From: Haliotis rufescens
Taxonomy: Eukaryota
Direction: 5' to 3'
Assembly: GCF_023055435.1 (NCBI RefSeq)
Contig: NW_025963802.1
Coordinates: forward strand, 614,355-678,354
DNA length: 64,000 nucleotides
The translations under genes were made by a program, and so were the position numbers. The number at the start of each line of letters is the position of its first letter. Positions within the stretch are counted from its first letter, which is position 1. The notes under the pieces are model-generated. The model was given only the letters and a program-made list of their open reading frames with translations, was not told the DNA's origin and searched no databases. Positions 6,001 through 58,970 of this stretch are shown one piece after another.

Positions 6001-9000
6001 TGTGTGAAGTGGAACAGAAGTGAAGTGTGAAGTGGGACAGAAGTGATGTGTGAAGTGGGACAGAAGTGTTGTGTGAAGTGGGACAGAAGTGTTGTGTGAA
6101 GTGGGACAGAAGTGTTGTGTGAACTGGGACAGAAGTGATGTGTGAAGACCAGAAGTGATGTGTGAAGTGGGACAGAAGTGATGTGTGAAGTGGGACAGAA
6201 GTGTTGTGTGAAGTGGGCCCGATGTGCTTGTGAAGACCAGAAGTGATGTGTGAAGTGGGACAGAAGTGATGTGTGAAGTGGGACAGAAGTGATGTGTGAA
6301 GTGGGACAGAAGTGATGTGTGAAGTGGGACAGAAGTGTTGTGTGAAGTGGGACAGAAGTGATGTGTGAAGTGGGACAGAAGTGATGTGTGAAGTGGGACA
6401 GACGTGATGTGTGAAGTGGGACAGAAGTGATGTGTGAACTGGGACAGACGTGATGTGTGAACTGGGACAGACGTGATGTGTGAAGTGGGAAAGAAGTGAA
6501 GTGTGAAGTGGGACAGAAGTGAAGTGTGAAGTGGGACAGAAGTGATGTGTGAAGTGGGACAGAAGTGATGTGTGAAGTGGGACAGAAGTGTTGTGTGAAA
6601 TGGGACAGAATTGATGTGTGAACTGGGACAGACGTGATGTGTGAAGTGGGACAGAAGTGATGTGTGAAGACCAGAAGTGATGTGTGAACTGGGACAGACG
6701 TGATGTGTGAAGACCAGAAGTGATGTGTGAAGTGGGACAAAAGTGTTGTGTGAAGTGGGCCCGATGTGCTTGTGAAGACCAGAAGTGATGTGTGAAGTGG
6801 GACAGAAGTGATGTGTGAAGTGGGACAGAAGTGATGTGTGAAGTGGGACAGAATTGATGTGTGAAGTGGGACAGAAGTGATGTGTGAAGTAGGACAGAAG
6901 TGATGTGTGAAGTGGGACAGAAGTGATGTGTGAAGTGGGACAGAATTGATGTGTGAAGTGGGACAGAAGTGATGTGTGAAGTGGGACAGAATTGATGTGT
7001 GAAGTGGGACAGAAGTGATGTGTGAAGTGGGACATAAGTGATGTGTGAAGTGGGACAGAATTGATGTGTGAAGTGGGACAGAAGTGATGTGTGAAGTAGG
7101 ACAGAAGTGATGTGTGAAGTGGGACAGAAGTGATGTGTGAAGTGGGACAGAATTGATGTGTGAAGTGGGACAGAAGTGATGTGTGAAGTGGGACAGAAGT
7201 GATGTGTGAAGTGGGACAGAATTGATGTGTGAAGTGGGACAGAAGTGTTGTGTGAAGTGGGACAGAAGTGATGTGTGACAGAAGTGATGTGTGAACTGGG
7301 ACAGACGTCATGTGTGAAGACCAGAAGTGATGTGTGAAGTGGGACAGAAGTGATGTGTGAAGTGGGCCCGATGTGATGTGTGAAGACCAGAAGTGATGTG
7401 TGAAGTGGGACAGACGTGATGTGTGAAGACCAGAAGTGATGTGTGAAGTGGGACAGAAGTGATGTGTCAAGTGGGACAGAAGTGAAGTGGGACAGAAGGG
7501 TTGTGTGATGTGGGACAGAAGTGATGTGTGAAGTGGGACAGAAATGTTGTGTGAAGTGGGGCAGAAGTGAAGTGGGACAGAAGTGTTGAGTGAAGTGGGG
7601 CAGAAGTGATGTGTGAAGTGGGACAGAAGTGATGTGTGAAGTGGGACAGAAGTGATGTGCGAAGTGGCTCAGAAGTGATGTGTGAAGTGGGACAGAAGTG
7701 ATGTGTGACAGAAGGGTTGTGTGATGTGGGACAGAAGTGATGTGTGAAGTGGGACAGAAATGTTGTGTGAAGTGGGACAGAAGTGTTGTGTGAAGTGGGA
7801 CAGAAGTGAAGTGTGAAGTGGGACAGAAGTGTTGTGTGAAGTGGGACAGAAGTGTTGTGTGAAGTGGGACAGAAGTGATGTGTGAAGTGGGACAGAAGTG
7901 ATGTGTGACAGAAGTGATGTGTGAACTGGGACAGACGTCATGTGTTAAGACCAGAAGTGATGTGTGAAGTGGGACAGAAGTGATGTGTGAAGTGGGCCCG
8001 ATGTGATGTGTGAAGACCAGAAGTGATGTGTGAAGTGGGACAGACGTGATGTGTGAAGACCAGAAGTGATCTGTGAAGTGGGACAGAAGTGATGTGTCAA
8101 GTGGGACAGAAGTGAAGTGGGACAGAAGGGTTGTGTGATGTGGGACAGAAGTGATGTGTGAAGTGGGACAGAAATGTTGTGTGAAGTGGGGCAGCAGTGA
8201 AGTGGGACAGAAGTGTTGTGTGAAGTGGGGCAGAAGTGATGTGTGAAGTGGGACAGAAGTGTTGTGTGAAGTGGGACAGAAGTGATGTGTGAAGTGGCTC
8301 AGAAGTGATGTGTGAAGTGGGACAGAAGTGATGTGTGAAGTGGGACAGATGTGTTGTGTGAAGTGGGACAGAAGTGATGTGTGAAGTAGGACAGAAGTGA
8401 TGTGTGAAGTGGGACAGAAGCGATGTGTGAAGTGGGACAGAAGTTTTGTGTGAAGTGGGACAGAAGTGATGTGTGAAGTGGGACAGAAGTGATGTGTGAA
8501 GTGGGACGGAAATGTTGTGTGAAGACCAGAAGTGTTGTGTGAAGACCAGAAAAGATGTGTCAAGTGGGACAGAAGTGATGTGTGAAGTGGGAGAGAAGTG
8601 TTGTGTGAAGTGGGACAGAAATGATGTGTGAAGTGGGACAGAAGTGATGTGTGAAGTGGGACAGAAGTGATGTGTGAAGTGGGACAGAAGTGATGTGTCA
8701 AGTGGGACAGAAGTGTTGTGTGAAGTGGGACAGAAAGGATGTGTGAAGTGGGACAGAAGTGTTGTGTGAAGTGGGACAGAAGTGATGTGTGAAGTGGGAC
8801 AGAAGTGATGTGTGAAGTGGGACAGAAGTGAAGTGGGACAGAAGTGATGTATGAAGTGGGACAGAAGTGTTGTGTGAAGTGGGACAGAAGTGAAGTGGGA
8901 CAGAAGTGATGTGTGAAGTTGGACAGAAGTGATGTGTGAAGTGGGACAGAAGTGTTGTGTGAAGTGGGACAGAAGTGATGTGTGAAGACCAGAAGTGATG

Positions 9001-10210
9001 GGTGAAGTGGGACAGAAGTGATGGGTGAAGTGGGACAGACGTGATGTGTGAAGTGGGACAGAAGTGTTGTGTGAAGTGGGACAGAAGTGATGTGTGAAGT
9101 GGGACAGAAGTGATGTGTGAAGTGGGACAGAAGTGTTGTGTGAAGTGGGCCCGATGTGCTTGTGAAGACCAGAAGTGATGTGTGAAGTGGGACAGAAGTG
9201 ATGTGTGAAGTGGGACAGACGTGATGTGTGAAGTGGGACAGAAGTGATGTGTGAAGTGGGAGAGAAGTGTTGTGTGAAGTGGGCCCGATGTGCTGGTGAA
9301 GACCAGAAGTGATGTGTGAAGTGGGACAGAAGTGATGTGTGAAGTGGGACAGACGTGATGTGTGAAGTGGGAGAGAAGTGATGTGTGAAGTGGGACAGAA
9401 GTGTTGTGTGAAGTGGGCCCAATGTGCTGGTGAAGACCAGAAGTGATGTGTGAAGTGGAACAGAAGTGAAGTGTGAAGTGGGACAGAAGTGATGTGTGAA
9501 GTGGGACAGAAGTGTTGTGTGAAGTGGGACAGAAGTGTTGTGTGAAGTGGGACAGAAGTGTTGTGTGAACTGGGACAGAAGTGATGTGTGAAGACCAGAA
9601 GTGATGTGTGAAGTGGGACAGAAGTGATGTGTGAAGTGGGACAGAAGTGTTGTGTGAAGTGGGCCCGATGTGCTTGTGAAGACCAGAAGTGATGTGTGAA
9701 GTGGGACAGAAGTGATGTGTGAAGTGGGACAGAAGTGATGTGTGAAGTGGGACAGAAGTGATGTGTGAAGTGGGACAGAAGTGTTGTGTGAAGTGGGACA
9801 GAAGTGATGTGTGAAGTGGGACAGAAGTGATGTGTGAAGTGGGACAGAAGTGAAGTGGGACAGAAGTGTTGTGTGAAGTGGGACAGAAGTGTTGCGTGAA
9901 GTGGGACAGAAGTGATGTGTGAAGACCAGAAGTGATGTGTGAAGTGGGACAGAAGTGATGGGTGAAGTGGGACAGACGTGATGTGTGAAGTGGGACAGAA
10001 GTGATGTGTGAAGTGGGACAGACGTGATGTGTGAAGTGGGACAGAAGTGATGTGTGAAGTGGGACAGAAGTGTTGTGTGAAGTGGGTCCGATGTGCTTGT
10101 GAAGACCAGAAGTGATGTGTGAAGTGGGACAGAAATGATGTGTGAACTGGGACAGAAGTGTTGTGTGAAGTGGGACAGAAGTGATGTGTGAAGACCAGAA
10201 GTGATGTGTG
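1..10210. repeat. Tandem satellite with a 23-bp monomer (GTGAAGTGGGACAGAAGTGATGT). Variant monomers include GAAGACCAGAA (20 bp) and a 16-bp form, and the array is organised into a higher-order repeat of about 3.78 kb. It continues past the left edge of the window.
   Basis: Direct reading shows 23-bp periodicity across the whole interval. The identical 846-aa ORFs at 416..2956 and 4200..6740 give an exact 3784-bp offset. The block at 1-420 recurs at 644-1070, 3781 and 7261. The array ends abruptly at about 10210 into GA-rich sequence. Confidence 0.97.
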
Positions 10211-12086
10211 AAGAGAAAAAGATAGAAAGAGAAAGAGAAAGAAGGCTGTGTGACTCAGTTCAATGCATGTCCTGGCCTATCAATTGGTTAGATCAACCCT
10301 GGTGATGTCAATCATAGGATTGTCTTTACATTCTCAAAATACAGACCGCCATCATATTGCTGACTGCTGCACTAAACAACATTCAATCACTAACACACTC
10401 ATTTGACAATAATCCTGAAACAAACAAAGCCATGGTGGAAAAGAGATCAATTTATTTACTTCTTAATCTTTGTAAGGACAGCTCCAATTCACAAGTAGTG
10501 TTCTACAGCAGTAGAGCAGGATTACTGTGATACCAAAAAATTGAGGTGATACTGTTTCTAAAATGTTGACAAATGCCAAGATCCAACATAAGGTATTGTG
10601 GGGTCTCATACACTGAACCCTATATTCATGAAACCATTGTCAAAAGGAACATCACCGCAAGCAGTAGGTGAGTTCTCTCCCTTTGTCCACGTTCCTGACA
10701 GGCATCATGGTCTGCCTACTTGTGGTGAATAGGCCAAGGGGACTGACTGCAAATTTAAAAAATGTGACAGCATCTAATTCACAGGAACAATTGTCAGAAA
10801 TAGCACTGTGCCAAACTGAAATAGCCAACAAGGTCCAAACACTTTGTTCCTTGAAGAAATAATTCACTATTGATGAAAATTCTTAAAATAATTCATCTTT
10901 TTTTCTAACGAAGGCAGAACCTGACATATTCACAGACTTGTGACAGGCTACCTTTAAACCATGAAACTTTTTTATTTACCTGTCCACTCTAATTTTGATG
11001 GATAAGAAAAGTTTCAAGGACAAATGCAAGAACATGTTAACTCAATTTTGTTACAATAACGGTTCAAATGCATAGTATACCTGTTATCTCAGGCAAAGGC
11101 AAACACAACACATTCAATACAAGCCTTTCTCGGCGATAATTGAACACCTGTAATGGTAGAGATAAACACAGGTTTATCCACTACCATGTTTACCTGATCA
11201 ACACATACAATGTCATACAAACACACACACACAATATTTTGACCAACCCATGCCACCTGTTCATAAAAACTTCTGTAAATCATACATTATTTTTTAAATC
11301 CCAGACTGTAGACTGTACTGCCACCTTTTTCATGAACACTTTCAGTTATATTTAGCACTATAACTTAAGGAAACCCTAAAACAACATCCCCCCCTGATCT
11401 TGACAGCAGGAATCTCATGAACCCAATATACAGCCAAGGCACTAACAGGCAAGCAGACTTCCCCCAGATGCAAAAGCCTGAGTTCAGAGCTCCAGATAAG
11501 CTGCGTATCTGCGTGAAATACGCATCAGAAATGCAGAAATACACAGTAAAATATAATCCAAGCATATCAAATATGCAACGAACATTACAGATATGCTACA
11601 AAAATAAAACTTGTGCGTATCATCAAAATATTGTGAAATAACCCTGTGTATTCGATTAGCAAACCAGCAACTTATTTTGAAATTATAAACGGGCATTCCG
11701 TCAACCTTGCCAAACTCCACGATGACAGTTACATCATGATCATTTGCCATCACACTTTCTTGTGGAAGTATCGTGGTATTTTTGAGTCCTATAAAGCTCT
11801 CGAACCCCCACGACACCAGTTTGCAGGGACTAGATGAATAGTGTTTTTAAATATTTAACTTAAATACCCACATGTGTAAAAACTAGTGGGTAACAGAAAT
11901 TTGAATACGCAGATAGAATTACTGATACCCAATGATTTTAAAATGCATGGGTAAAATACCCACAACACCAAAAGCTTATCTGGAGCTCTGTGAGTTAAAT
12001 GCAAATCATGTTATCACATGTTATTTGGTGATAATGTCTGATAATGTGTGGTGATTATGTCTCATAATGTCTGGTGCTTTCACCAA

Positions 12087-13765: not shown

Positions 13766-15003
13766 ATGCTGTATAATGCTGCATAATGCTGTATAATGCT
13801 GTATAATGCTGTATAATGCTGCATAATGCTGTATAATGCTGTATAACGCTGTATAACGCTGTATAATGCTGTATAATGCTGTATAATGTTGCATAACGCT
13901 GTATAATGCTGTATAATGCTGTATAATGCTGTATAATGTTGTATAATGCTGTATAATGCTGTATAATGTTGCATAACGCTGTATAATGTTGCATAACGCT
14001 GTATAATGCTGTATAATGCTGTATAATGCTGTATAATGTTGTATAATGCTGTATAATGCTGTATAATGTTGTATAATGCTGTATAATGCTGTATAATGTT
14101 GCATAACGCTGTATAATGCTGTATAATGCTGTATAATGTTGTATAATGCTGTATAATGTTGCATAACGCTGTATAATGCTGTATAATGCTGTATAATGCT
14201 GTATAATGTTGTATAATGCTGTATAATGCTGTATAATGTTGCATAACGCTGTATAATGCTGTATAATGCTGTATAATGCGGTATAATGCTGTATAATGCT
14301 GTATAATGCTGTATAATGCTGTATAATGTTGTATAATGCTGTATAATGCTGTATAATGTTGTATAACGCTGTATAATGCTGTATAATGCTGTATAATGCT
14401 GTATAATGCGGTATAATGCTGTATAATGCTGTATAATGCTGTATAATGCGGTATAATGTTGTATAATGCTGTATAATGCTGTATAATGCTGTATAATGCT
14501 GTATAATGCGGTATAATGTTGTATAATGCTGTATAATGCTGTATAATGCTGTATAATGCTGTATAATGCGGTATAATGTTGTATAATGCTGTATAATGCT
14601 GTATAATGCTGTATAATGCTGTATAATGCTGTATAATGCGGTATAATGTTGTATAATGCTGTATAATGCTGTATAATGCTGTATAATGCTGTATAATGCG
14701 GTATAATGTTGTATAATGCTGTATAATGCTGTATAATGCTGTATAATGCTGTATAATGCGGTATAATGTTGTATAATGCTGTATAATGCTGTATAATGTT
14801 GTATAATGCTGTATAATGCTGTATAATGTTGTATAACGCTGTATAATGCTGTATAATGCTGTATAATGCTGTATAATGCTGTATAATGCGGTATAATGCT
14901 GTATAATGCTGTATAATGCTGTATAATGCTGTATAATGCTGTATAATGCTGTATAATGCGGTATAATGCTGTATAATGCTGTATAATGCTGTATAATGCT
15001 GCA
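13766..15003. repeat. 10-bp tandem array (GCTGTATAAT)n of about 120 copies. Variant units are GTTGTATAAT, GCGGTATAAT and GTTGCATAAC. There is a local higher-order repeat of 60-70 bp.
   Basis: Direct reading. The ORFs at 13714..15114 and others in this interval are periodic artefacts. Confidence 0.95.
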
Positions 15004-15273
15004 CAAAGCAATATTCCAGCTATCGGACGGCAGGACACATTCTACCCTGGGACCCATGGGGCCAGAGATATTGTTATCATGAAAATGATACTTTAAGATA
15101 TCGAAAGTCATCATCTAAGTTGGGCGTAGTTGAGGCCTTAAACAAGTGCAGGCAGAATTGGCAATAAAATACAGCACAGTTCGCATATTAATTTCCAAAC
15201 TTGTGCTTGTGAAACCTCTGCAGCTTGTGCTTTTTCCCGGAATCTAATATGGTTGGATTTGGCCAAAGGCATC

Positions 15274-16214: not shown

Positions 16215-16373
16215 AGTGAGTATGGTTTTACGCCGCTTTTCGCAATATTCCAGCAATATCACTGTCAGGGACACCACAAATAGGCTTCAAACTTTGTACC
16301 CATGTTGGGAATTGAACCTGACTCTTCGGCGTGACAGGTGAATGCTATAACCAGTAGGCTACCCCAACACCCC
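16215..16373 (-). mobile_element. tRNA-derived SINE of family A. On the sense strand it has a tRNA-like head (ggggcggtcgggtagcctagtggttaaagcgttcgctcgtcacgccgaagacccgggttcgattccc...) and a (GAGT)n tail.
   Basis: The head has tRNA-like A-box and B-box sequences (tagcctagtgg, ggttcgattcc). Many copies are present in the window. Confidence 0.75.
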
Positions 16374-17564: not shown

Positions 17565-17790
17565 GTCCAAGATTATTGCACTCATATACGCGTGCATGCA
17601 CATACTAGTCTGGACTGATGCCAATTTATAGTGCTAGCACACTGAGATACTATGCCCCAGTTTAACATGAATACCCCGCTCAGACACAGCATACAAACTC
17701 CGAGCAGACCAGTCCTTGTTTTAGCCCCTTAATGCCGAGCGCCAGACAGGGTAACAATAAGTACCATCTTTTAACGTCTTTTGGTATGAC
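17565..17790 (-). mobile_element. SINE family C copy lacking the tRNA head. It ends 20 bp from the exon 3 donor of the PCED1-like gene.
   Basis: Sequence identity to the body of 40975-41232. Confidence 0.7.
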
Positions 17791-18042: not shown

Positions 18043-18602
18043 CTGCATCAAGGTGAGAGGTGAAAGGTCAGAAGCAAAAAACAGGAAAACTTGTCAAAGA
18101 AGAAATAAGTATCGGTATGTTTGAGGTCAGTTGATATTTCATGTCAAAGTAGCTGCTTTTATCATTTTACATTTCAAAACTTTATTCCTTCATGAAGCTG
18201 TGCTTGTTTCGCAACACTTGTGTAAACTTTTATTGCTATTTATTATCCCTTGCTTCTCAATGGTAGAGTGAGTGAGTGAATTGGGTTTAACCCAACAGTA
18301 TTCCAGTTACCGTATTCGACGTAATAAGTGCCCCGCTCTAATAAGCGCCCAAGGCGATATTTGCTAATATATTGGCTCGTGAACAATCCCAATTAGCACC
18401 CTTTCCGATTTATCAATGTACACAATACTTATTTATTCACGTATAATACGCACCCTTAATTATGGGCAATTAAATTCTGGAAAAATATATCTCTCGTATA
18501 TAAACATTTCAGGCTGTCAGCATAAACCACAAAATTTATCTTTCAACTCTGTTATTTTTCCGACAAAATAATATTCTAATAAGATCCCCCTATTTCTAAT
18601 TT

Positions 18603-18953
18603 TGAGTGAGTGAGTGAGTTTGGTTTTACGCCGCTTTTAGCAATATTCCAGCAATATCACGGTGGGAGATCTAATTTTGAGAGCGCCCTGGGCGCTTATT
18701 ACGTCGAATACGGTATATCAACGGCGTGTCAGCTCAATGTGGGAGGAAAGCACGAAGTGATGCAGGTCTCAGACGTTTATCACTTCGGTGAAACCCACGA
18801 GCATGGGTATGGTACTGACAAACCTAGAAACATAATCAGGGTGAACCGGGATTTGAACCCACAATCCTAGGTTTCTGGCGTGCCCAAGGGCCGCAACTCT
18901 GCACAGCGAATCGCAGCGCTTTAGACGACTAAGCCACCTGTGCCCGTGCCCCC
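18603..18953 (-). mobile_element. tRNA-derived SINE of family B. The head is gggggcacgggtggcccagtc...ggttcgaatcc, the body is about 200 bp, and the tail is the same module as in family A. This copy carries an internal insertion of about 45 bp.
   Basis: It matches the plus-strand copy at 25298-25575. The tail is gagtgagtgagt...ttacgccgcttttagcaatattccag. Confidence 0.7.
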
Positions 18954-19227
18954 ATATTATCTAAGAGTGTGAATATTACCACAGTGATTAGATGGTATTT
19001 CGTGGACAATTACAGAACAATTCAGCTAATAAGATAACACGCTGACTAGATTCCTCATTAGGGTCTGCGATTTAGCTGATAGCGTGTCACTGTGCCTCGA
19101 CTGCAAGGGGCGCTACTCATGGTTTCAGATACTGATGTCTGATTCTGACGGGAATATGTTTTGGGTGACGTGATATAGTTGAATGCAAATGATACATTTG
19201 AAAAATGAATATTACAAATATAGACCG

Positions 19228-19375
19228 CCTCAGTGGTCTAGTGGTAGAGCGTCCGCACGGAAAGCAGAAGGTGCGGGGTTCGATCGCCAGTCGCGTCATA
19301 CCAATAGACGTTAAAAGATGGTACTTGTTGGTACACTGCCTGGTGCTTGCCTTAGACGCCTGGGCTACCCATGCC
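19228..19375 (+). mobile_element. tRNA-derived SINE of family C. The head is gcctc(a/c)g..gtctagtggtagagcgtccgc...ggttcgatc and the body is ttaaaagatggtacttgttg....
   Basis: It matches the copies at 40975-41232 and 17565-17790. It is a SINE rather than a genuine tRNA gene because it continues into the conserved family body. Confidence 0.65.
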
Positions 19376-19574: not shown

Positions 19575-20442
19575 ACCTGTATATTTTGAGTTAGTGAGTT
19601 GCGTTTAACGCGGCTTTTAACAGTATTCCAGTTATATCGCGGCGTGTCAGCTTAATGTGGGAGGAAAACACGAAGTGATGCAGGTCTCAGACGTTGACCC
19701 TATATATTTTGTTTTGGTAAAACGAAATGCGGGAGCAATGTGAAATACATTCAAAATCAGGTTCTCTTCTTTTGACGAGAGTATTCGATAAAACAACTGA
19801 TGGTGTAAACTACATAATGACGGAAATTATATTAGGGGACGGGTTTTAACGACCCACTGGAGATCTCGTTGTACCACAAATAGATAGATAGAGTGAGTAA
19901 GGTTTAACGCTGCTTTTAACAGTATTCCAGTTATATCGCGGCGTGTCAGCTGAATGTGGGAGGAAAGCACGAAGTGATGCAGGTCTCAGACGTTGACCCT
20001 ATATATTTTGTTTTGGTAAAACGAAATGCGGGAGCAATGTGAAACACATTCAAAATCAGGTTCTCTTCTTTTGATGAGAGTATTCGATAAAACAACTGAT
20101 GGTGTAAACTACATAATGATGGAAATTATATAAGGGGACGGGTTTTAACGACCCACTGGAGATCTTGTACCACAAATAGATAGATAGAGTGAGTAAGGTT
20201 TAACGCTGCTTTTAACAGTATTCCAGTTATATCACAGCGTGTCAGCTTAATGTGGGAGGAAAGCACAAAGTGATGGTCTCAGATGATTACCACTTGGGTG
20301 AAACCCATGAGCACGGGTATGGTGCTGACAAACCTAGAAACATAATCGGGGCGAACCAGGATTCGAACCCACAATCATAGGTTTCTGGCGTGCCCAAGGG
20401 ATGCAACTCTTGCCTTAGACGACTGGGCCACCCGTGCCCCCT
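19575..20442. repeat. Tandem triplication of about 306 bp. Each unit contains a SINE family B tail fragment plus about 190 bp of unique sequence.
   Basis: The blocks 19587-19892, 19893-20198 and 20199-20442 align base for base (gagtgagtaaggtttaacgctgcttttaacagtattccagttatatc...gttgaccctatatattttgttttggtaaaacgaaatgcgggagcaatgtgaaa...). Confidence 0.85.
20199..20442 (-). mobile_element. SINE family B copy with an internal deletion. It forms the last unit of the 306-bp tandem triplication.
   Basis: Sequence identity. Confidence 0.7.
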
Positions 20443-25297: not shown

Positions 25298-25575
25298 GGG
25301 GGCACGGGTGGCCCAGTCATCTAAAGCGCCGCGATTCGCTGTGCAGAGCTGCGTCCCCTGGACACGCCAGAAATCTATGATTGTGGGTTCGAATCCCGGT
25401 TCGCCCCGATTATGTTTCTAGGTTTGTCAGCACCAACCCGTGCTCGTGGGTTTCACCGAAGTGGTAAACGTCTGAGACCTGCATCACTTCGGGCTTTCCT
25501 CCCACATTTAGCTGACACGCTGTGATATAACTGGAATACTGTTAAAAGCGGCGTTAAAACTCACTCACTCACTCC
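25298..25575 (+). mobile_element. SINE family B, a full-length copy of about 278 bp. A (CATT)n microsatellite precedes it.
   Basis: Reads gggggcacgggtggcccagtcatctaaagcgccgcgattcgctgtgcagagctgcgtcccctggacacgccagaaatctatgattgtgggttcgaatcccggttcgcccc ... aaaactcactcactcactc. Confidence 0.85.
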
Positions 25576-27584: not shown

Positions 27585-27858
27585 CGAGTGAGTGAGTGAG
27601 TTTGGTTTAACGCCGCTTTTAACAGTATTCCAGTTATTTCGCGGCGTGTCAGCTTTATGTGGGTGGAAAGCCCGAAGTGATGCAGGTCTCAGACGTTTAC
27701 CACTTCGGTGAAACCCACGAGCACGGGTATGGTGCTGACAAACCTAGAAACATAATTGGGGCGAACCGGGATTCGAACCTACAATCATAGGTGTCTGGCG
27801 TGCCCAAGCGCCGAAACTCTGCACAGCGAATCGCGGCGCCTTAGACGACTGGACCCGT
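27585..27858 (-). mobile_element. SINE family B copy.
   Basis: Sequence identity. Confidence 0.8.
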
Positions 27859-28922: not shown

Positions 28923-29759
28923 TAAATACAGAGAAGAGTTCGTTCCCAGGGGCGGTTTTAATAAACATTCTTAGAGTGCTAAAGAGGTCTTAAGTCTGAG
29001 AAAAGTCTGTGAAATACCAAAAGTTACGAATCATTTTCGCGAATGAAGAGTATTCTGAAATCTGAAGACAATTCTGAGAATGTTTATGAATACGTCCCCC
29101 AAATACCCAGATGTATGCCGGAATATTGGCCACCTCGGTCTGCTTCGATGTCAAGCATTCACCCACCTACTCACTCACTGACTCACGTAAAGACTTACAG
29201 TTTAGCTGTATGTCACCATCACACACTTCAAGACAAGAGCCAGACCAGAGCCTGACAGGTTTGTATGAGGCGCAACGTGCGGGGGTCGCATTGTCCAAGG
29301 TCACAGCCCGGCACTCCTCCACTGTACGTGGTCGCCATCTTCCTGTTTGGGACTGGAATGTTCATGCTTGCTGATGGGTATATGTTCAATTTAGATAAAA
29401 AATGTCCCCGTGTCTACAAGTTGTCAAAGTGTTAGTACAGGCGCTAACAGGCCTGACCTCGCGGTTACAATGCGGTCAGAGACCAATAAACCAGGAGACT
29501 GAGACCCCCATTGCTCTGCTTCACATCGTCCTGCTTCAGCGTTCCTGTGACACATTCCACGATTTAAAGATTACCCTTGCCCTGCTAAAACTAATGATAT
29601 CGTAACATATACTCACTGATGCACGTTAAACATGCTAAACACATACCACACATTTGCACAGGAGTTATACGATGCATCATCAATCAAATCTAAATTCAAC
29701 TCCCTCTTCAAGGAATCTCTTCAAGATGTAAATACAACAAGAGGCACAGGAAACAAACT

Positions 29760-30190
29760 TAGGACATATAGGATAGTTAAAAATGAAATAAAATGAGAAC
29801 CCTATCTCAGTCACTGTAAAGTAAAAAAATATCGAGTCCACTTTTCTAAACTAAGATTAAGTAACCATAAATTAAATATTGAACTTGGAAGACACACAAA
29901 GCCACCAACCCCACTACATCAGAGGCTATGCTCTACATGTTCAATCATTGATAACGAAAAACATTACTTACTTCACTGCATTAAACACACTCGAGAAAGA
30001 AATATACTCTTTGAAAAACTATCCAGACAAAATGTAAATGTAAATGTTCACAGTCATGAAGACAAATTATTTCAATACATCCTATCAAATAATGAAGCAG
30101 TCAATATCAACTGCATTTGTTTCCACATCTATAATTTCAAACAATAAATACCCTTTCATAATCAACCGTTGACATTTTATGTATAAAAAT
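29760..30190 (+). mobile_element. Degenerate 3' terminal fragment of a non-LTR retrotransposon ORF2 of L2/CR1-like type.
   Basis: The frame-shifted translation gives ...KLRTYRIVKNEIK...FSKLRLSNHKLNIELGRHTKPPTPLHQRLCSTCSIIDNEKHYLLHC.... This is the characteristic RLSxHxLxIExGR...RxCxxC...E.HxLxxC C-terminal motif. The interval contains multiple stops and frameshifts. Confidence 0.6.
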
Positions 30191-30292
30191 ATGTAATATT
30201 GATTATTTTGTTTCTGTATGTGTCTACAGGAATGTAAATTATGTATGTCTGTATATATGTATATATAAATCATAATGTCTTGTCTTTTAAAA

Positions 30293-30355
30293 TTGCATCT
30301 GTCCCGTAATGGAACGTTTCTGCAATAAATATTATCTTATCTTATCTTATTATCT
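30293..30355 (-). repeat. Right arm of the inverted-repeat pair.
   Basis: Reverse complement of 28861-28922 with 1-2 mismatches. Confidence 0.85.
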
Positions 30356-30582
30356 TATCATGGCTTGAAGATGTATGTTTATTGTTATTGTTCAAAATAT
30401 AACCCCGCTCCCTTACACGTCGGCATCCGCTGGTCGAATCCAGATTGTGATCGTCAAATTTTTACCCGTTCTCGTGGCTTTCCGTAACGTGTTAATTAAA
30501 CGACTACTCCCTTGGTTATAACCAGTGAATGCGACCTTCGTCACGTTGGACCCGCCATCCTCCCATATGAAACTGACACGCC

Positions 30583-31202: not shown

Positions 31203-31478
31203 ATGTAAGTTGGTTGGTTGGTCGGTTGGTTGTTTTACGCTGCACTCAGCAATATTCCAGCTATATGACGGCGGTCTGTAAATAATCGTGTCTGGACCAG
31301 ACAATCCACTGATTAATATCATGAGCATCGATCCACGCAATTGGGATCGATGACATGCATCAACCAAGTCAGCGAGCCTGACCACCCGATCCCGTTAGTC
31401 GCCTTTTACGACATGCATAGTCACCTTTAACAGCAAGTATGGGTTGCTGAAGACCTATTCTACCCCGGAATCTTCACT
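31203..31478 (-). mobile_element. Family D interspersed element (SINE-like, about 265 bp). On the sense strand the head is cccgtgaagatccggggtagaataggtcttcagcaacccatgc... and the tail is ...cggcgttaaacaac(aaac/caac)n. This copy is inserted into the 22-bp satellite with a target-site duplication of about 10 bp (taatgtaagt).
   Basis: The satellite is continuous on both sides. The flanks read gtaataatgtaa|g and gataatgtaagtgtaatg. Confidence 0.8.
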
Positions 31479-31848
31479 GGTTGATAATGTAAGTGTAATG
31501 ATGTTACAATGTAACTGTAATAGTGTAATAATGTACCTGTAATCGTGTAATAATGAACATGTAATAATGTAACTGTAATAATGTAATACTGTAGCTGTAA
31601 TAATGTTATAATGTACCTGTAATAGTGTAATAATGTAACTGTAATAGTGTAATAATGTACCTGTAATAGTGTAATAATGTTTCTGTAATAGTGTAATAAT
31701 GTTTCTGTAATAGTGTAATAATGTACGGTAACCTGTAATAGTGTAATACTGTTTCTGTTATAGTGTAATGTACCTGTAATAGTGTAATAATGTAACTGTA
31801 ATAGTGTAATAATGTACCTGTAATAGTGTAACTGTAATAATGTAACTG
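31479..31848. repeat. 22-bp satellite, right part, after the family D SINE insertion.
   Basis: The same monomer as 30583-31202. Confidence 0.95.
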
Positions 31849-32559: not shown

Positions 32560-32821
32560 CCCGTGAAGATTCCGGGGTAGAATAGGTCTTCAGCAACCCA
32601 TGCTTGCCGTAAAAGGTGACTATGCTTGTCGTAAAAGGCGACTAACGGGATCGGGTGGTCAGGCTCGCTGACTTGGTTGATACATGTCCCAATTGCGTGG
32701 ATCGATGCTCATGATATTAATCAGTGGATTGTATGGTCCAGACTCGATTATTTACAGACCGCCGTCATATAGCTGGAATATTACTGAGTGCGGCGTTAAA
32801 CAACAAACCAACCAACCAACC
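32560..32821 (+). mobile_element. Family D copy with a target-site duplication of about 10 bp (tttatctaga).
   Basis: The flanks read cctttatctagagac|cccgtgaag and ccaaccaacc|tttatctagacttg. Confidence 0.8.
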
Positions 32822-35744: not shown

Positions 35745-35947
35745 GGGGGCACGGGTGGCCCAGTCGTCTAAGGCGCCGCGATTCGCTGTGCAGAGTTGCG
35801 TCCCTTGGGCACGCCAGAAACCTATGATTGTGGGACCGAATCCCGGTTCGCCCCGATTATGTTTCTAGGTTTGTCAGCACCATACCCGTGCTCGTGGGTT
35901 TCACCAAAGTGGTAAATGTCTGAGACCTTCATCACTTCGGGCTTTCA
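35745..35947 (+). mobile_element. SINE family B copy, truncated at the 3' end.
   Basis: Sequence identity. Confidence 0.8.
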
Positions 35948-37548
35948 ATAAGTTCATCATCAACCGTGCTGTTGAAAGCAACGTCACTCATTAAGCGTCA
36001 TGATTCACCCTGATTGTGATCCTCAGCGTCACTGTAGTTTTTCTTTCGCTGTCTCGCCATATATGTCAGATATTGCCACAGGCGTCGTTAAACCAAACCC
36101 ATTCACTCATTCACCCATTCACCCATTCACCCATTCACTCATTCAACCCGTTAACCTCCATGGGCAACCCTAGAGGCCCTAGAGAATAAATTAAAAAAGA
36201 AGTCCAACACAAATCTAGAATAATTGGGTAAGTCTCGATTGCATCAGCTCCAGGTAATTAAGCATTTGTCTGGGCTCCATTTGGATTTTACTTTTGTTAT
36301 TTTGTAAATATATACTTGAATAAGATGACTTTATTTCCGGGACTAAATGCCAGGCTACCCAAGTACGTGCTTGATGTCCGAATCGACGAAGTTCTACACA
36401 AGTGACCACATTACAGATTCTGTTGTATTTTCAGACCGGTGCATCTGACATTGGAGCAAGTCTCTTTTAAGATAGTTTTGTTGGTCGTTTGTATGATATA
36501 GACAGGCCATATTGAACTGGTATCAAGTTTTGTCCTTGAGATTTTTATCTTGCACTTATCAGAGGGCCATCGGCTCACTGAACCAGACGTCTACACATGT
36601 TTTCCCTTTCAGTGACACAACTTGCGGGGTAAATTAGTGGGTAGATCGTTAGCCACGCATGAGATGTGGGTTCGATTCCCCATATGGGTAAAAAGCATTA
36701 GGCGCGTTCCTAGTGTCTTTTCATATTTCAGGATTACTACTAAAAGCGACGTTAAACCATATTCACACACTGGTATTCAAAATTGTGCGTATTTCTGTTG
36801 TTTTAACACAGCATCTTATGAATGTCCTAATGCTGCCTTTCTATACTAGCAATTTATATAGAGAGTTTAACATGGAAACAAAATCGTGATGCTGGGGGCG
36901 TTTGTAAACACCTCGTCTGTCACAGACCTTGAAACAAATATATCCAATGCATCCCGTGCAAGTCTATAATATTTTACACGTGCTGTGAAATTCCAAGCAT
37001 TTATAGCTCTGCAGATTTGTTTAGTCTCTGAAGAAAGTCCCTGGTCTCCATTTTATTATATTTTATAACTAGAATTTAACAACTGTTTTTTCTGTAAAAT
37101 TATGTTTATTTCAGAGGCTAGATGTTAGTCTAGTCAACACCTTGCAGTGGGATCTGTTCTCGCGTGAGGTCACAGGTCAACTTGCCAGCCTCACATCTAA
37201 GGGCGCTGCCGTTGGAGTGTTGAGCGATCAAACATATCTGTGTTTTGGAATTGGCTCAGACAAAGCAGAAGGTTCAAAAATCCAACACCATCGGTGTCAG
37301 CTTTGGATCATTTGATCCCATTTTGGTTCTGTCCTCGATTATAATAAGTATTAACACTATTCTATTTTGAATACTCTGGTCCTTCTTCGCCAGCCAAACT
37401 TCATTTTAGCATAACGCTAAAAATAGACGTCCAATCATATTGCACTACAATGTGACTGCATCTGCATTCGTCTTTGTTGTGCACGTCTCAAATACAACTT
37501 GGAACACCTGGTGGCATAATGGCTTAACACCCCATAAAACATGTCGAT

Positions 37549-40128: not shown

Positions 40129-40974
40129 CAACTGTCCGTGGGGCACGCGAGTGGCCCAGTCGTCTTATTTGCTGTACATGGTTGCGTCCCTTAGACCTGC
40201 CAGAATCCAATGATTCCTGTTCCTGGTCATTATCCAGTTCAGTCGGCATCATATCCTTGATCGTGGATTTCACTAGTCTAACGCTTAGTCTCTGAAAATA
40301 TATATTCTGATAAAAAACAAACAACTCCATTTACATTGAAAAGGGAGATGGGAGATACAAAGACTGTGGAAATCTAGACTTGCTTCGGTTAGAGTCATAC
40401 AACTACAGTAAGGGTTGGGCGGAAGGGAATATAATATGGTTCAGGGACTGTGCTAGTCTGTCATACAGACCCTGAAACAAATATAAATGAATAAAATAGC
40501 AAGTCTAGATTTCTGCAGTATCAGAAGAGAGTGGGCTCCTTTTTATTATATTTCATAACTATAATTTAACAACTATTTGTGTCGTAAAATATGATCATAT
40601 CAAAGACTAGATATTAGTCTGGGACCGTGAGACAGACTAGGGTTTCACCAAAGTGGACCGGCTCCCATCAGACTGCCACCCTTATTCAACTGTGATACAA
40701 CTGAAATACATTCAAAGCGGCGCAGAACCCAATCCACTCACCACCATTGTTCTGTTTCAGTCTGGAATTCGGAGATGGGAACATCTTGTTGATCGTGTCT
40801 CAGACGGGGGAGGTCGTCGCCTATCTCGCAAGTGAGTCAATATTCTGTCTCTGAGGTGAGGTGAGGTGAGGTGAGGTGAGGTGAGATTTAACGTCGTGTC
40901 CACGATTATTACACTTATACAGCGACCAGTGTGTGCGTGCGTGCGTGCGTGCGTGCGTGCGTGTGTTGGGTGGC

Positions 40975-41232
40975 TGCTCGTACTAGTCCGGGCTAATGCC
41001 GAGTTTATAGCGCACGCCCACTGCGATGCCATGCCGCAGTTTAACATGAATACCACACTCAGACACAGTATGCTGACTCCCAGCAGACCAGTCCTTGTTT
41101 TAGCCCCTTAATGCCGAGCGCCAGACAGGGTAACAACAAGTACCATCTTTTAACGTATTTATGACGCATCCGGGGATCGAACCTCGGACCTTCGCTATAC
41201 GAGCGGACGCTCTACCACTAGACGACGGAGGC
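40975..41232 (-). mobile_element. SINE family C, a full-length copy with a (GTGC)n microsatellite at its 3' end (40925-40968).
   Basis: Sequence identity. Confidence 0.75.
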
Positions 41233-42106
41233 GGTCTCTGTCTGAGACAGACCATGTTACACTATATATAAAAATATAACTGGTTCCTGAAAATTCTTTG
41301 GCCTCATGTTTTATAAAACAAATACATGAACGCTACAATTGCTACATGTCCTAACGGGAAATATATATGAAACCTCACAAACATATTTATTAAATCGCAT
41401 AATTCCTGTGGTTGTACTTACTTTATTCATCAATCATCACTTTTATAAAAAGTCAACATCTCACTAATTATATGAGTTTGTGTAGTCAGGCACCTCGACT
41501 ATGAAATATGTGTTTTATCACCTCAAAACCTGTAGGATATCTGCATTTAGTTTAATTCAATCAACCCATTCAAGATTATTAACAAGGCTAGTCAAGCTAG
41601 CTGAAAACAACATCAGCACAAGAAAATATACTTTCTGATGAAAGGAAATGTATTGTGTAATAAAAGTCTACATGAAATCAGTATTCATTACAAAAATAGA
41701 CGCAAGGAGAGAAATGCATTGTGTAATATACTACTCAAAAGAAGTTAAGGATCACCCGATTCTTTCATAATGGTAAAGTTAATCTGTCATGACATGAGAG
41801 ATTAACTATAGTAATATGAAAGAAACAGGTGATCCTTAACTTCTTTTGAGTAGTATATAAGATTTCAAGACTTTATAAACTGCTCTGCAAAAGTAAATTG
41901 GATTTGACTAAATATTAAAAACGTTATCAAAACGTTACTAGTCTGAAAACAGTCGCCGAAACACTGCAACCTAAAGGTCGAAAACACAACTATGATACCT
42001 ATATGAACTACATCACCATCGAATATAACTATTTCTTGTTGGCTTCCTTTTAGTCACCATTAAACATTGGTGCCACCTTGGCGTAGGATATGCTCGCCTA
42101 TTTGCG

Positions 42107-42352
42107 AAACCCGTGAAGATCCGGGTTAGTATAGGTCTTCAGAAACCCATGCTTGTCGTCAGAGGCGACTAACGGGATCGGGTGGTCAGCCTCGCTGACT
42201 TAGTTGGTGCATGTCATCGAATCCCAAATGCGTGGACCGATGCTCCTGATATCAATCACTAGATTGTGTTGTCCAGACTCGATTGTTTACAGACTAAGAC
42301 CGCCGTCACATAGCTGGAATATTGCTGAGTGCGGCGTTAAACAACAAACAAA
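42107..42352 (+). mobile_element. Family D copy.
   Basis: Sequence identity. Confidence 0.8.
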
Positions 42353-45192: not shown

Positions 45193-45358
45193 GTGAGTGA
45201 GTGAGTAGGGTTTTACGCCGCTTTTTGCAATATTCCAGCAATATCACGGCGGGGGACACCAGAAATAGGCTTCACACATTGTACCCATGTCGGGAATCGA
45301 ACCCGGGTCTTTGGCGTGACGAGCGAACGCTTTAACCACTAGTCTACCCGACCGCCCC
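45193..45358 (-). mobile_element. SINE family A copy.
   Basis: Sequence identity to the family consensus. It lies in tandem with the copy at 45401. Confidence 0.8.
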
Positions 45359-45400
45359 TATTTAGGATAGAAATGTATTGTGTAATAAATAATTTCATAG

Positions 45401-54711: not shown

Positions 54712-54882
54712 GTGAGTGAGCGGGTATTGTTTTACGCCGCTTTTTGCAATATTCCAGTACTAACACGGCGGGGGACACCAGAAATGGGCTTCCCACATTG
54801 TACCCATGCATGTTGGGAATCGAACCCGGGTCTTCGGCGTGACAAGCGAACACTTTGACCACGAGGCTACCCCACCGCCCCT
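54712..54882 (-). mobile_element. SINE family A copy.
   Basis: Sequence identity. Confidence 0.8.
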
Positions 54883-54989
54883 CACTGCATCCTGACCCAC
54901 ACAGGCCCAAGTACATTTCACGAGGACATGGGTTTGAGCATACAGAATTATTACGACCTGCGTCACTGTTGTAATTGCCTCCAACATTA

Positions 54990-55132
54990 GTGAGGGAGTT
55001 TGATTTTACGCTGCTTTTAGCAATATTCCAGCAATATCACGGCGGGGGACACCAGAAATGGGCTTCACACTCGAACCCGGGACTTCGGCGTGACGAGCGA
55101 ACGCTTTAACCACTAGGCTACCCGACCGCCCC
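54990..55132 (-). mobile_element. SINE family A copy with an internal deletion.
   Basis: Sequence identity. Confidence 0.7.
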
Positions 55133-57351: not shown

Positions 57352-58805
57352 TGTTGAATCAGCCACAGGTCGCCTCCGAGTTAAAGATGGTAGCCTCGGT
57401 CAATGGTGCGCCGCCTTGGGTGATAGAATTTGGGCAGCACTGACGACTCTTGCACCTGGCACGTGTGACGGCGCACGGATTCCACGTGCATTTTATAACT
57501 CGCCATACGTCCAGGCCGCCAACGGTTTTCATTGGCTCGGGTTTTCCCGTCAATTAACAATTGGGCGGCGCTTACATTATTTGTAAACATAAATCACGTG
57601 ACACTAAAGTCGTTGGGGTAACGAAGTAACTATTTTATCAGAAATGACGATCAGTTTGATATTTTGTATCTCAACCATAAATGTTATTTTTGATGACGCA
57701 CTCAAAATACAATGATGATAATTTAAGTACGTGAAGTCGCAATATAATATATTTTCAGCATGCCAGCGGAAATCATGTAGTTATATAAAAATGTAACAGC
57801 GCCATTGACAATATTGTTTCCAATATATAAAGGAATGATGTTACCCGTTTAGATGCATATACAGCTAATAATTATGGTAAAAACTAAGTAGCATCAACTT
57901 GACCTTACACGCGAAGAATGTGGGACCTAGTATGAATGGACTGACAGTGACACAATGTAACACTACATGAATTTGCAATATAGCTACAGTATTGCCACGT
58001 CGCAATGAAACGGCCTTATCAAACACACGGCGCAATATATTTGAAGAGTATCACAATGAGCCACAATGACTGTAAACCAATATCTAATGCATTGCCATGA
58101 TGTACAAAATATAAGCGTCAAAGCCATGTCCATAATCTTAATACACCTCAGCCAATAGAAATACTTAAATTGGTCTTATCGAAAACTCCACGAAGCTGAG
58201 AAGATGCAATTTACACTGTAGTGCGTGGATTCAGATCAGTAGGGCGAATTTTTAAAAAGTCGAATATTTGTTTTGATTTCATCAAAATGTTGAGTAGGGG
58301 AAACATCAATTGTGAGAGGGTATGTTTAAGAGGAATTTTCAACAGATATTAATTATGGTATTTTAATAATTTATTTATAAGAGTATATTAACACAAAATC
58401 ACTGCTTTTCATTTTTTGTCAAATCTGGCCTTGTATGAGTAGGGGAAACATCAATTGTGAGAGGGTATGTTTAAGAGGAATTTTCAACAGATATTAATTA
58501 TGGTATTTTAATAATTTATTTATAAGAGTATATTAACACAAAATCACTGCTTTTCATTTTTTGTCAAATCTGGCCTTGTATGAACAAACAGAAATATAGG
58601 GATGTGGGTTGAAAATAGAAATATGATATAATTAAACATTGGATCAAAGCATTTCACGTATTCCTGAACAAATGCACTTGTTAGACCTTTACAAAACTGC
58701 AATATAGTTGAAAAAAATAATATAAATTTTATTTCCCAGCTATCATCAGAACGGCTATAGTGCTTGACATTTCTGCCCTCGATGTCTACAGCCCATGCAG
58801 GAATG

Positions 58806-58970
58806 TGAGTGAGTGAGTTTGGTTTTACGCCGCTTTTAGCAATATTCCAGCAATATCACGGCGGGGGACACCAGAAATGGGCTTCACACATTGTACCCAT
58901 GTCGGGAATCGAACCCGGGTCTTCGGCGTGACGAGCGAACGCTTTAACCACTAGGCTTTCCGACCGCCCC
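58806..58970 (-). mobile_element. SINE family A copy flanked by a target-site duplication of about 11 bp (tgcaggaatgt).
   Basis: The 5' flank reads catgcaggaatgt|gagtgag and the 3' flank reads ccgcccc|tgcaggaatgtaagt. Confidence 0.85.

What the first reader, a model, noticed from the sequence alone, without database searches (positions are those of the whole stretch)
18603..18953. SINE families A and B carry different tRNA-derived heads but share the same 3' tail module of about 60 bp
Family A has the head ggggcggtcgggtagcctagtggttaaagcg.... Family B has the head gggggcacgggtggcccagtc.... Both end with ...ggaatat/ctgttaaaagcggcgt(t)aaaac(c)a(a)actcactcactc, whose reverse complement reads gagtgagtgagt..ttacgccgcttttagcaatattccag. 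This kind of modular tail sharing implies that both families recruit the same LINE partner for retrotransposition, or that they arose by template switching. Family C (41 kb) and family D, with a (CAAA/CAAC)n tail, use different tails. Together this amounts to at least four SINE lineages in 64 kb.
Basis: seen in the sequence. Interest (0 to 1): 0.5.

Follow-up and report, generated by a model that had tools for sequence, protein, structure and literature searches.

The report
Abalone SINE families sharing one tail
Several families of short retrotransposons (SINEs) in this abalone genome carry the same 43-base 3' tail, an ordinary and already described feature of mollusc SINEs, and the flagged example is three mobile elements nested inside one another.

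Summary
The window is abalone (Haliotis) DNA. The shared tail is real. After the terminal (ACTC)n repeat is removed, the family A and family B consensus sequences share 43 unique bases at 86% identity. About 29 tail copies occur in the window, against fewer than one expected by chance.

The flagged interval 18603-18953 is not one SINE. It is a family B SINE (18266-18953, minus strand) split by a 404-bp element with 26-nt terminal inverted repeats and a TA target duplication. That element in turn carries a 63-nt 5'-truncated family A fragment flanked by a 12-nt target duplication. The B copy's own tail lies at 18266-18309.

Family D, said to use a different tail, has the same 43-nt module (86% identical to A) and differs only in its terminal repeat. 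Family C really is different.

Two A copies are absent from a sister-species locus, with clean empty sites, so family A moved recently.

No partner LINE was found. The CR1-like fragment near 30 kb does not carry the tail.

Tail sharing among mollusc SINE families, Haliotis included, is published (Nishihara 2016; Matetovici 2016; PMC11481361, 2024). Interest is low.

The parts
18714..18953 (-). Family B tRNA-related SINE, 5' part (head and body, consensus positions 1-233). It is cut off by an insertion.
   Evidence: 93% identical to the B consensus over 232 nt. Once 18310-18715 is excised it rejoins 18266-18309 to give a full-length B at 92.4% identity over 275 positions.
18310..18713 (.). 404-bp element with terminal inverted repeats (MITE-like), inserted in the tail of the B copy. 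The TA target duplication lies at 18308-18309 and 18714-18715.
   Evidence: Inverted repeat arms at 18308-18333 and 18690-18715, 26 nt, 96% complementary. The B consensus reads gataTAactgg at this point, and the locus reads gataTA[element]TAactgg. Only a 104-nt internal piece has a second copy, at L001 3047-3150.
18607..18669 (-). 5'-truncated family A SINE fragment (consensus positions about 103-166), inserted inside the inverted-repeat element.
   Evidence: 96.9% identical to the A copy at 58805-58970 over 64 nt. Zero mismatches to the A-type tail motif. A-type at all positions that distinguish A from B tails.
18595..18606 (.). Target-site duplication of the A fragment, left copy (TCTAATTTTGAG).
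   Evidence: Exact 12-nt direct repeat with 18670-18681 (family D3). It abuts the fragment on both sides.
18670..18681 (.). Target-site duplication of the A fragment, right copy.
   Evidence: family D3.
18266..18309 (-). The interrupted B copy's own tail: taactggaatactgtt(7-nt deletion)gttaaacccaattcactcactcactc.
   Evidence: It carries the B-type diagnostic bases (aac, atactgt, gttaaac).
25298..25574 (+). Full-length family B copy with an intact B-type tail and (ACTC)n. This is the proper evidence for A/B tail sharing.
   Evidence: 95.4% identical to the B consensus over 282 nt. Tail sequence.
27586..27855 (-). Family B copy, 5'-truncated at consensus position 13, with an intact tail.
   Evidence: 95.9% over 270 nt. 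Its tail is 88% identical to the A tail over 59 nt.
19587..20441 (-). Family B multimer: one full copy followed by two 299-bp units (spacer, B 3' third and tail). The whole array is flanked by ATATACAGGT.
   Evidence: Tandem repeat of period 299, 2.3 copies, 96% matches. Sequence. Blast coordinates.
58805..58970 (-). Youngest full-length family A copy (98.8% to consensus). Target duplication ATTCCTGCA. Absent from the sister-species locus L001.
   Evidence: The empty site in L001 reads acttacATTCCTGCAtgggctg.
54989..55132 (-). Family A copy with an internal deletion. 13-nt target duplication TAATGTTGRAGGC. Absent from L001.
   Evidence: One search shows the clean empty site. Coordinates.
45193..45358 (-). 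Family A copy with target duplication TATCCTAAATA. A second A copy lies at 45400-45552.
54712..54881 (-). Family A copy shared with L001. Further A copies lie at 16215-16373(-), 60792-60922(-, 5'-truncated) and 52999-53094(+, internally deleted).
32560..32816 (+). Full-length family D copy. It has no tRNA-like head, the same 43-nt tail module, and a (CAAA/CAAC)n end. There are 13 D copies in all, 5 of them starting at consensus position 1-2: 31217-31480(-), 42110-42352(+), 46850-47095(+), 51101-51347(-) and this one.
   Evidence: Alignment. Coordinates. Tail identity to A of 37/43. No A or B box.
36627..36771 (+). A-like diverged SINE ('family E') with a tail variant: ggattactactaaaagcgacgttaaaccatattcacacact.
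35745..36145 (+). Family B variant. Its 3' half is replaced, and it ends in a diverged tail (gatattgccacaggcgtcgttaaaccaaac) followed by (ACCCATTC)n.
40961..41260 (-). Family C: tRNA-related head, unrelated 3' end, and a (CACG)n end. This is the one family that really has a different tail. Fragments lie at 17597-17781(-) and 19222-19347(+).

Best explanation
The window is from an abalone (Haliotis) genome that is dense with SINEs.

The flagged interval is three nested transposition events on the minus strand:
1. An old family B tRNA-related SINE inserted at 18266-18953.
2. A 404-bp element with 26-nt terminal inverted repeats cut-and-paste inserted at a TA inside the B tail (18310-18713).
3. 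A 5'-truncated family A SINE (63 nt) retroposed into that element, making a 12-nt target duplication.

The apparent 'B head with A-type tail' is therefore juxtaposition, not a chimeric SINE.

Separately, intact copies show that families A and B carry the same 3' module. So do family D, which has no tRNA-like head, an A-like family E, and some B variants. The module is about 43 nt: CGCCG, a loop of 24-28 nt that contains CTGGAATAYTG, CGGCG, then T(T)AAAC. A short tandem repeat follows.

Inferred mechanism: the module is the 3' recognition and priming end used by the reverse transcriptase of a stringent-type LINE. The RT binds the GC-clamped hairpin, primes on the terminal repeat at a nicked target (target-primed reverse transcription), and often stops early. 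That yields 5'-truncated copies flanked by duplications of 9-13 bp. Different heads acquired the module by RT template switching or by recombination between SINE RNAs or DNAs.

Shown here: the shared sequence, family-specific tail variants, target duplications, 5' truncations and species-specific insertions.

Inferred only: recognition by a LINE RT, the role of the hairpin, the template-switch origin, and the identity of the partner LINE.
For: Organism:
- The nanos ORF at 56464-57366 is 96% identical to H. asinina Nanos.
- It is identical to the H. rufescens / H. cracherodii protein.
- The orthologous locus L001 is 90-97% identical to the window.

Nesting:
- 26-nt inverted repeat, and a 12-nt direct repeat at the fragment's two edges.
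- The B copy's own tail at 18266-18309.
- Excising 18310-18715 restores a full-length B at 92.4% identity. Reading the interval as one element needs a 62-nt insert and gives an A-type tail.

Tail sharing:
- Searches give the counts against shuffles.
- One search gives A-B 37/43, A-D 37/43 and B-D about 36/46 without the microsatellite, all above 500 shuffles.
- Each family keeps its own tail variant across copies.

Retroposition:
- Target duplications.
- Truncated copies.
- Two A copies missing from L001 with exact empty sites.

Heads:
- A has canonical A and B boxes at positions 13 and 56. B has a relaxed A box at 12 and a perfect B box at 89. D has neither.
- Rfam tRNA scores 25 bits on A heads, below the gathering score of 29.

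Hairpin:
- The predicted folds pair the conserved arms: CGCCG with CGGCG in A and D, and an extended 7-bp ACGCCGC with GCGGCGU in B. The z-scores are -1.45, -3.6 and -2.6.

Module mobility:
- A metagenome contig (L007) has a D-type body ending in gcggcgtaaaactaaactcactcac.
- Contigs L006 and L009 have A-type SINEs ending in (CAGT)n.

Literature: shared tails across mollusc SINE families, including Haliotis, are read as use of a common LINE (PMC4824008 section 11; PMC4758252 section 10; PMC11481361 section 13).
Against: - No LINE with this tail was found, so derivation from a LINE and RT recognition are untested.
- The hairpin has almost no covariation support. The stem is invariant, and only 1 of 4 consensus pairs shows a double change. 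The z-score for A is weak.
- The inverted-repeat element has no second full copy in the roughly 140 kb of Haliotis-like DNA available. Calling it a MITE rests on its inverted repeats, the TA duplication and the clean interruption of B.
- The B copy itself has no recognisable target duplication.
- No orthologous empty site could be fetched for the 18.6-kb locus.
Confidence: 0.8

Rival explanations
1. The flagged element is a true chimeric SINE: a B head and body joined to an A tail by RT template switching, with a 62-nt linker, and retroposed as one unit.
For: The B body and the A-type tail lie on the same strand, 62 nt apart, and the interval ends in (ACTC)n. Template switching is the accepted route to mosaic SINEs (PMC4758252).
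Against: 44 nt of the 62-nt linker (18670-18713) are one arm of a 26-nt inverted repeat plus adjoining element sequence. The other arm lies 356 nt away. The remaining linker bases belong to the B consensus. The A fragment has its own 12-nt target duplication inside that element. The B copy's own B-type tail continues directly beyond the other arm. No second copy of such a chimera occurs in the window or the fetched loci.
Confidence: 0.03
2. The common tail is not LINE-derived. It descends from one ancestral SINE whose heads and bodies were replaced over time, or it spreads between SINE families by recombination or gene conversion. The mobilising RT needs only the terminal short repeat (relaxed recognition).
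For: No LINE with the tail was found. The terminal repeat varies between families and species while the 43-nt module stays: ACTC, CAAA/CAAC, ACCCATTC, CAGT. PMC11481361 reports 16 of 21 tail clusters with no identifiable LINE-derived region.
Against: The module is kept at 78-86% identity between families whose bodies share nothing else, and between Haliotis species and other mollusc-like DNA. That argues for selection on source copies, as expected for a recognition element. PMC4824008 groups the tails of HalSINE1 and BivaV-SINE1 together, and PMC11481361 pairs BivaV-SINE1 with a Nimb LINE. Whether that published tail is the one found here was not testable.
Confidence: 0.15
3. Family D is not a SINE. 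It is the 5'-truncated 3' end of the partner LINE itself, which would explain why A and B resemble it.
For: D has no Pol III boxes. It carries the tail. One reading frame is open for 63 codons up to the terminal repeat.
Against: Five copies start at the same consensus position 1-2, and the element is only about 264 nt long. No copy extends further 5'. The translated body finds only three tiny spurious ORFs and no RT protein among 5.8 billion sequences.
Confidence: 0.04
4. The segment 18310-18713 is a local inverted duplication or rearrangement rather than a transposon.
For: No second full-length copy was seen.
Against: The break falls exactly at a TA that is present once in the B consensus and twice at the locus, one copy at the outer end of each arm. 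The arms are terminal. The interrupted B rejoins without loss.
Confidence: 0.08

Closest known systems
Mosaic ('jigsaw') mollusc SINEs with shared 3' tails: HalSINE1 / LitSINE1 / BivaMeta-SINE1 / BivaV-SINE1 tail group (Nishihara et al. 2016, PMC4824008), and the mosaic model for bivalve SINEs (2024 Mob DNA paper, PMC11481361)
   Same: tRNA-related heads with unrelated bodies. A homologous tail of about 40-60 nt is shared across families and species and is followed by short tandem repeats. It is interpreted as use of one LINE clade and module exchange by template switching. Haliotis is among the taxa described.
   Different: The published consensus sequences are in figures and supplements that are not held in the text library. 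I could not test whether A or B equals HalSINE1, or whether the tail is the same one. Here the tail is also shown on a family without a tRNA-like head, and with interchangeable terminal repeats.
LP-SINEs (LINE-promoter SINEs) of Haliotis, Littorina, Ostrea and Saccostrea (Matetovici et al. 2016, PMC4758252). In Saccostrea an LP-SINE shares body and tail with two tRNA-derived SINE families.
   Same: Family D has no tRNA-like head, has a defined 5' end and ends in tandem repeats. [quoted passage not shown] The D-like copy in contig L007 has ACTAAA just before its terminal repeat, the hexamer that paper reports for LP-SINEs.
   Different: Homology of the D head to the roughly 70-nt Nimb/RTE 5' UTR segment that defines LP-SINEs could not be tested. 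The paper's other reported hexamer, AATATA, is not present in these D copies.
Stringent-type SINE-LINE pairs recognised through a 3' stem-loop plus terminal repeats (eel UnaSINE1/UnaL2; Kajikawa and Okada 2002, as cited in PMC4824008)
   Same: A GC-closed hairpin lies immediately upstream of a short tandem repeat at the 3' end. There are 5'-truncated copies and variable target duplications.
   Different: No partner LINE is known here, there is no experimental test, and there is essentially no covariation support for the hairpin.
Tc1/mariner-derived Stowaway-like MITEs (my own knowledge of the class)
   Same: Small size (404 bp), 26-nt terminal inverted repeats, TA target duplication, no ORF.
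   Different: Only one full copy was seen, and no related transposase was identified.
SINE multimers of the form TSD-(SINE)n-TSD, and SINE-derived tandem arrays in bivalves (PMC11481361, section 15)
   Same: The B array at 19587-20441 is a full copy plus 5'-truncated repeats, flanked by a single target duplication.
   Different: Here each repeat unit also contains about 190 bp of non-SINE spacer.

Membership tests
tRNA-derived SINE (families A and B) | Internal Pol III promoter: A box (TRGCNNAGTGG) and B box (GGTTCGANNCC) in a tRNA-related 5' head | tested here: met
   A has TAGCCTAGTGG at position 13 and GGTTCGATTCC at 56. B has TGGCCCAGT (relaxed) at 12 and GGTTCGAATCC at 89.
tRNA-derived SINE (families A and B) | The head is recognisably homologous to a tRNA | tested here: inconclusive
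   Rfam tRNA model scores 25.0-25.3 bits on two A heads against a gathering score of 29 (E 0.5-0.65). There is no hit on B heads. ARAGORN finds none.
tRNA-derived SINE (families A and B) | Short (under 600 bp), non-coding, dispersed copies with variable target duplications and 5' truncations | tested here: met
   A is 166 nt and B is 282 nt. Duplications are 9-13 bp. Truncated copies and species-specific insertions exist.
Stringent SINE-LINE partnership | The SINE tail is homologous to the 3' end of a LINE in the same genome | tested here: not met
   The only LINE fragment in the window (29632-30360, ending in (TATCT)n) has no tail homology. No RT motifs occur in the window or in L001-L010. 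This tests only about 140 kb. The genome-wide test could not be run.
MetaSINE superfamily / HalSINE1 | The 66-nt Meta-domain follows the tRNA head | not testable with these tools
   The consensus is not in the held text, and no supplements are held.
LP-SINE (family D) | A head of about 70 nt homologous to the 5' UTR of Nimb/RTE LINEs, with no Pol III boxes | tested here: inconclusive
   The absence of A and B boxes is shown, and the 5' end is discrete in 5 copies. Homology to Nimb-17_LMi and the other reference LINEs is not testable here.
Stowaway-like MITE (18310-18713) | Terminal inverted repeats and a TA target-site duplication | tested here: met
   26-nt arms, 96% complementary, with TA on both sides of a site that has a single TA in the B consensus.
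Stowaway-like MITE (18310-18713) | Multiple dispersed copies with the same termini | tested here: not met
   Only a 104-nt internal fragment recurs, at L001 3047-3150. The DNA sample is far too small to be decisive.

The most novel reading that the evidence does not exclude
The 43-nt hairpin module may be a long-lived universal 3' adaptor of mollusc non-autonomous retroposons. On this reading it is carried both by Pol III (tRNA-headed) SINEs and by SINEs without a tRNA head that may be Pol II, LINE-promoter driven. The interchangeable terminal repeat (ACTC, CAAA/CAAC, CAGT, ACCCATTC) would select among related LINE partners. The module would also act as a seed for satellites, as suggested by the 1.2-kb 10-mer array at 13766-15001, which begins at a D-type tail, and by the 299-bp B array.
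Probability: 0.25. Interest if true: 0.35.

Novelty: new member of a known kind. Interest (0 to 1): 0.15.

Why it matters
This is mostly a matter of annotation. It shows that a 'chimeric' SINE read from raw sequence can be a nested insertion. It also gives clean consensus sequences, tail boundaries and two dated insertions for abalone SINE families that are useful as phylogenetic or population markers. Biologically it adds one more case, in a vetigastropod, to the documented mosaic evolution of mollusc SINEs, and it shows that a family without a tRNA-like head shares the tail. It does not open a new question. The one open item, which LINE mobilises these elements, needs a whole-genome search.

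Tried and rejected
- Rfam at gathering thresholds found nothing. ARAGORN found nothing.
- At E up to 1, Rfam gave only sub-threshold tRNA hits on A heads.
- Pfam on ten large ORFs found only Nanos.
- A regex search for RT motifs in six frames of the window and L001-L010 found nothing.
It has a different terminal repeat and no tail homology.
- A pattern scan of viral contigs found nothing.
- The metagenome scan gave 7 short mollusc-like contigs with SINEs but no LINE.
- The open frame of family D was translated and searched against 5.8 billion proteins, in case D were a LINE C-terminus. It returned only 3 tiny spurious ORFs.
- A full-text search for tail and head sequence strings found no relevant paper. 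No supplements are held for the three key papers.
- A 1.1-kb window-specific segment (60005-61128) was considered as a possible LINE ending in a D tail. It was rejected because the D copy there has its own AGGTAAAC duplication, so the difference is a deletion in L001.
- The tail hairpin was tested for covariation. The stem is invariant, so the test is uninformative.
- The orthologous site of the 18.6-kb locus could not be fetched, because no exact-match protein lies nearby.

Full report
**What the window is**

The window is eukaryotic. An ORF at 56464-57366 (minus strand) has a Nanos zinc-finger domain (Pfam, 1e-22). It is 96% identical to the Haliotis asinina Nanos-like protein. It is identical to the protein annotated in H. 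rufescens and H. cracherodii.

The orthologous locus from assembly GCA_022045235.1 (L001) is 90-97% identical to window 47-64 kb. The window therefore comes from a very close congener rather than from that assembly. Loci from H. rubra (L002) and H. asinina (L003) were also fetched.

**The observation**

The tail motif TTACGCCGCTTTTAGCAATATTCC occurs 10 times at 3 or fewer mismatches, against 0 expected. A looser 29-nt pattern gives 31 hits, about 29 of them real, against 0-2 per shuffle.

Self-blast and alignments define these families:
- **Family A**: 166 nt, 8 copies or fragments.
- **Family B**: 282 nt, 8-10 copies or fragments.
- **Family D**: 264 nt, 13 copies.
- **Family C**: 3 copies or fragments.
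- **Family E**: a diverged A-like element at 36627-36771.

A has canonical Pol III A and B boxes. B has a relaxed A box and a perfect B box. D has neither.

With the terminal microsatellite removed, the consensus tails align as follows, each far above 500 shuffles:

| Pair | Identity |
|---|---|
| A and B | 37/43 |
| A and D | 37/43 |
| B and D | about 36/46 |

So the sharing is real and is not just (GAGT)n. Only family C has an unrelated 3' end, with (CACG)n.

Each family keeps its own tail variant across copies:
- A: GCTGGAATATTGCTAAAAGCGGCGTAAAAC
- B: ACTGGAATACTGTTAAAAGCGGCGTTAAAC
- D: GCTGGAATATTGCTGAGTGCGGCGTTAAAC

**The flagged locus**

The interval 18603-18953 is not one SINE.
- **Inverted repeat.** A 26-nt inverted repeat (18308-18333 and 18690-18715, 96% complementary) brackets a 404-bp segment.
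- **Direct repeat.** An exact 12-nt direct repeat (18595-18606 and 18670-18681) brackets the tail-like piece.
- **B-type tail beyond the left arm.** Upstream of the left arm the sequence continues as a B-type tail, 18266-18309.
- **Excision test.** Excising 18310-18715 restores a full-length B at 92.4% identity to the consensus. The site reads gataTAactgg in the consensus and gataTA[insert]TAactgg at the locus.
- **Reading as one element.** Reading the interval as a single element would need a 62-nt insert and gives a tail with every A-diagnostic base.

The order of events follows from this. A B SINE inserted first. A MITE-like element with terminal inverted repeats then inserted at a TA in its tail. 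A 5'-truncated A SINE (63 nt, 97% identical to the youngest A copy) then inserted into that element, with a 12-nt target duplication.

The inverted-repeat element has no second full copy in the DNA available. Only a 104-nt internal piece recurs in L001.

**Evidence of retroposition**

- A copies carry target duplications of 9-13 bp: TATCCTAAATA at 45193-45358, ATTCCTGCA at 58805-58970, and TAATGTTGRAGGC at 54989-55132.
- The last two copies are absent from the sister-species locus L001, with exact single-copy empty sites. Family A has therefore been active since those species split.
- 5'-truncated copies exist: 18607-18669, 60792-60922 and 27586-27855.
- All three families occur in H. rubra and H. 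asinina loci.
- A scan of public metagenome contigs returned seven short mollusc-like contigs. One has an A-type SINE ending in (CAGT)n. One has a D-type body ending in gcggcgtaaaactaaactcactcac. The 43-nt module and the terminal repeat therefore recombine.

**How it probably works**

The module can fold into a hairpin closed by conserved GC arms (CGCCG with CGGCG in A and D, extended to 7 bp in B), directly upstream of the tandem repeat. The z-scores are -1.45, -3.6 and -2.6. The stem is invariant, so covariation says nothing either way.

This layout matches stringent-type LINE/SINE 3' ends, where the LINE reverse transcriptase recognises a stem-loop and primes on the terminal repeat. That a LINE RT recognises it here is inference. 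No LINE with this tail was found:
- The window and all fetched loci lack RT motifs.
- The CR1/L2-like C-terminal fragment at 29632-30360 ends in (TATCT)n and has no tail homology.
- The D body translated in its open frame hits no RT protein.

**Comparison with what is known**

- Nishihara et al. 2016 (PMC4824008) report that HalSINE1 of Haliotis discus shares its 3' tail with LitSINE1 and several bivalve SINE families, with the partner unknown.
- Matetovici et al. 2016 (PMC4758252) describe the jigsaw exchange of heads, bodies and tails in gastropods and bivalves. [quoted passage not shown]
- The 2024 Mob DNA paper (PMC11481361) formalises the mosaic model, finds four LINE clades as partners, and pairs BivaV-SINE1 with a Nimb LINE. 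It also describes TSD-(SINE)n-TSD multimers.

The present case is the same phenomenon. Whether A, B and D are the published families could not be tested, because the consensus sequences are not in the held text.

**Verdict**

The shared tail is real, the example locus was misread, and D was wrongly excluded. It is plausible but unproven for lack of the LINE. Novelty is low: new members, at most, of a well-described kind.

Noticed in passing
window 15-10213: A 10.2-kb satellite with a 23-bp unit (GTGAAGTGGGACAGAAGTGATGT), about 459 copies, extreme GC skew (+0.74), and a higher-order periodicity suggested by repeated long ORFs about 3.8 kb apart.
   Followed up: no
window 13766-15040: A 1.2-kb array of 124 copies of a 10-mer. 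On the minus strand it reads (AGCATTATAC)n and begins exactly at the end of a D-type SINE tail (36/45 identity to the D tail). The repeat unit looks like the last 10 nt of the tail (GGCGTTAAAC) amplified into a minisatellite.
   Followed up: partly
window 19587-20441: Family B multimer: one full copy plus two 299-bp units (about 190 bp of spacer, the B 3' third and the tail). The whole array is flanked by one ATATACAGGT duplication. The end of the spacer (gcatttcgttttaccaaaacaaaatatata) also directly follows the tail of the unrelated B copy at 25298-25574, which is unexplained.
   Followed up: partly
window 56464-57366 (-): Intact single-exon nanos gene, identical in protein to H. rufescens / H. 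cracherodii. SINE copies lie within 2 kb on both sides, two of them species-specific.
   Followed up: yes
window 41740-41844: A 105-nt near-perfect hairpin that scores on both strands against a plant miRNA precursor model, well below its threshold (43 bits against 90). It is probably a small foldback or MITE, not a miRNA.
   Followed up: no
window 29632-30360: 3' fragment of a CR1/L2-like LINE: C-terminal ORF2 remnants (NKLRTYRIVKNEIK...) ending in (TATCT)n. It is unrelated to the SINE tails.
   Followed up: yes
window 31217-31480, 32560-32816, 42110-42352, 46850-47095, 51101-51347: The family D head (cccgtgaagatccggggtagaataggtcttcagcaaccc...) has no Pol III boxes and contains an internal duplication (tgcttgycgtaaaaggcgacta, twice). 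It may correspond to the LINE-promoter 'LP-SINE' class.
   Followed up: partly
window 60005-61128 vs L001 7765/7766: A 1.1-kb segment is present in the window and missing in the sister-species locus. The breakpoints fall inside a D copy's target duplication, so it is a deletion in the other lineage, not an insertion here.
   Followed up: yes
L004 and L005 (metagenome contigs PEAW01016487.1 and PEAW01016486.1): D-like elements arranged as tandem units about 350 bp apart in mollusc-like DNA inside a public metagenome assembly. The host organism is unknown.
   Followed up: no
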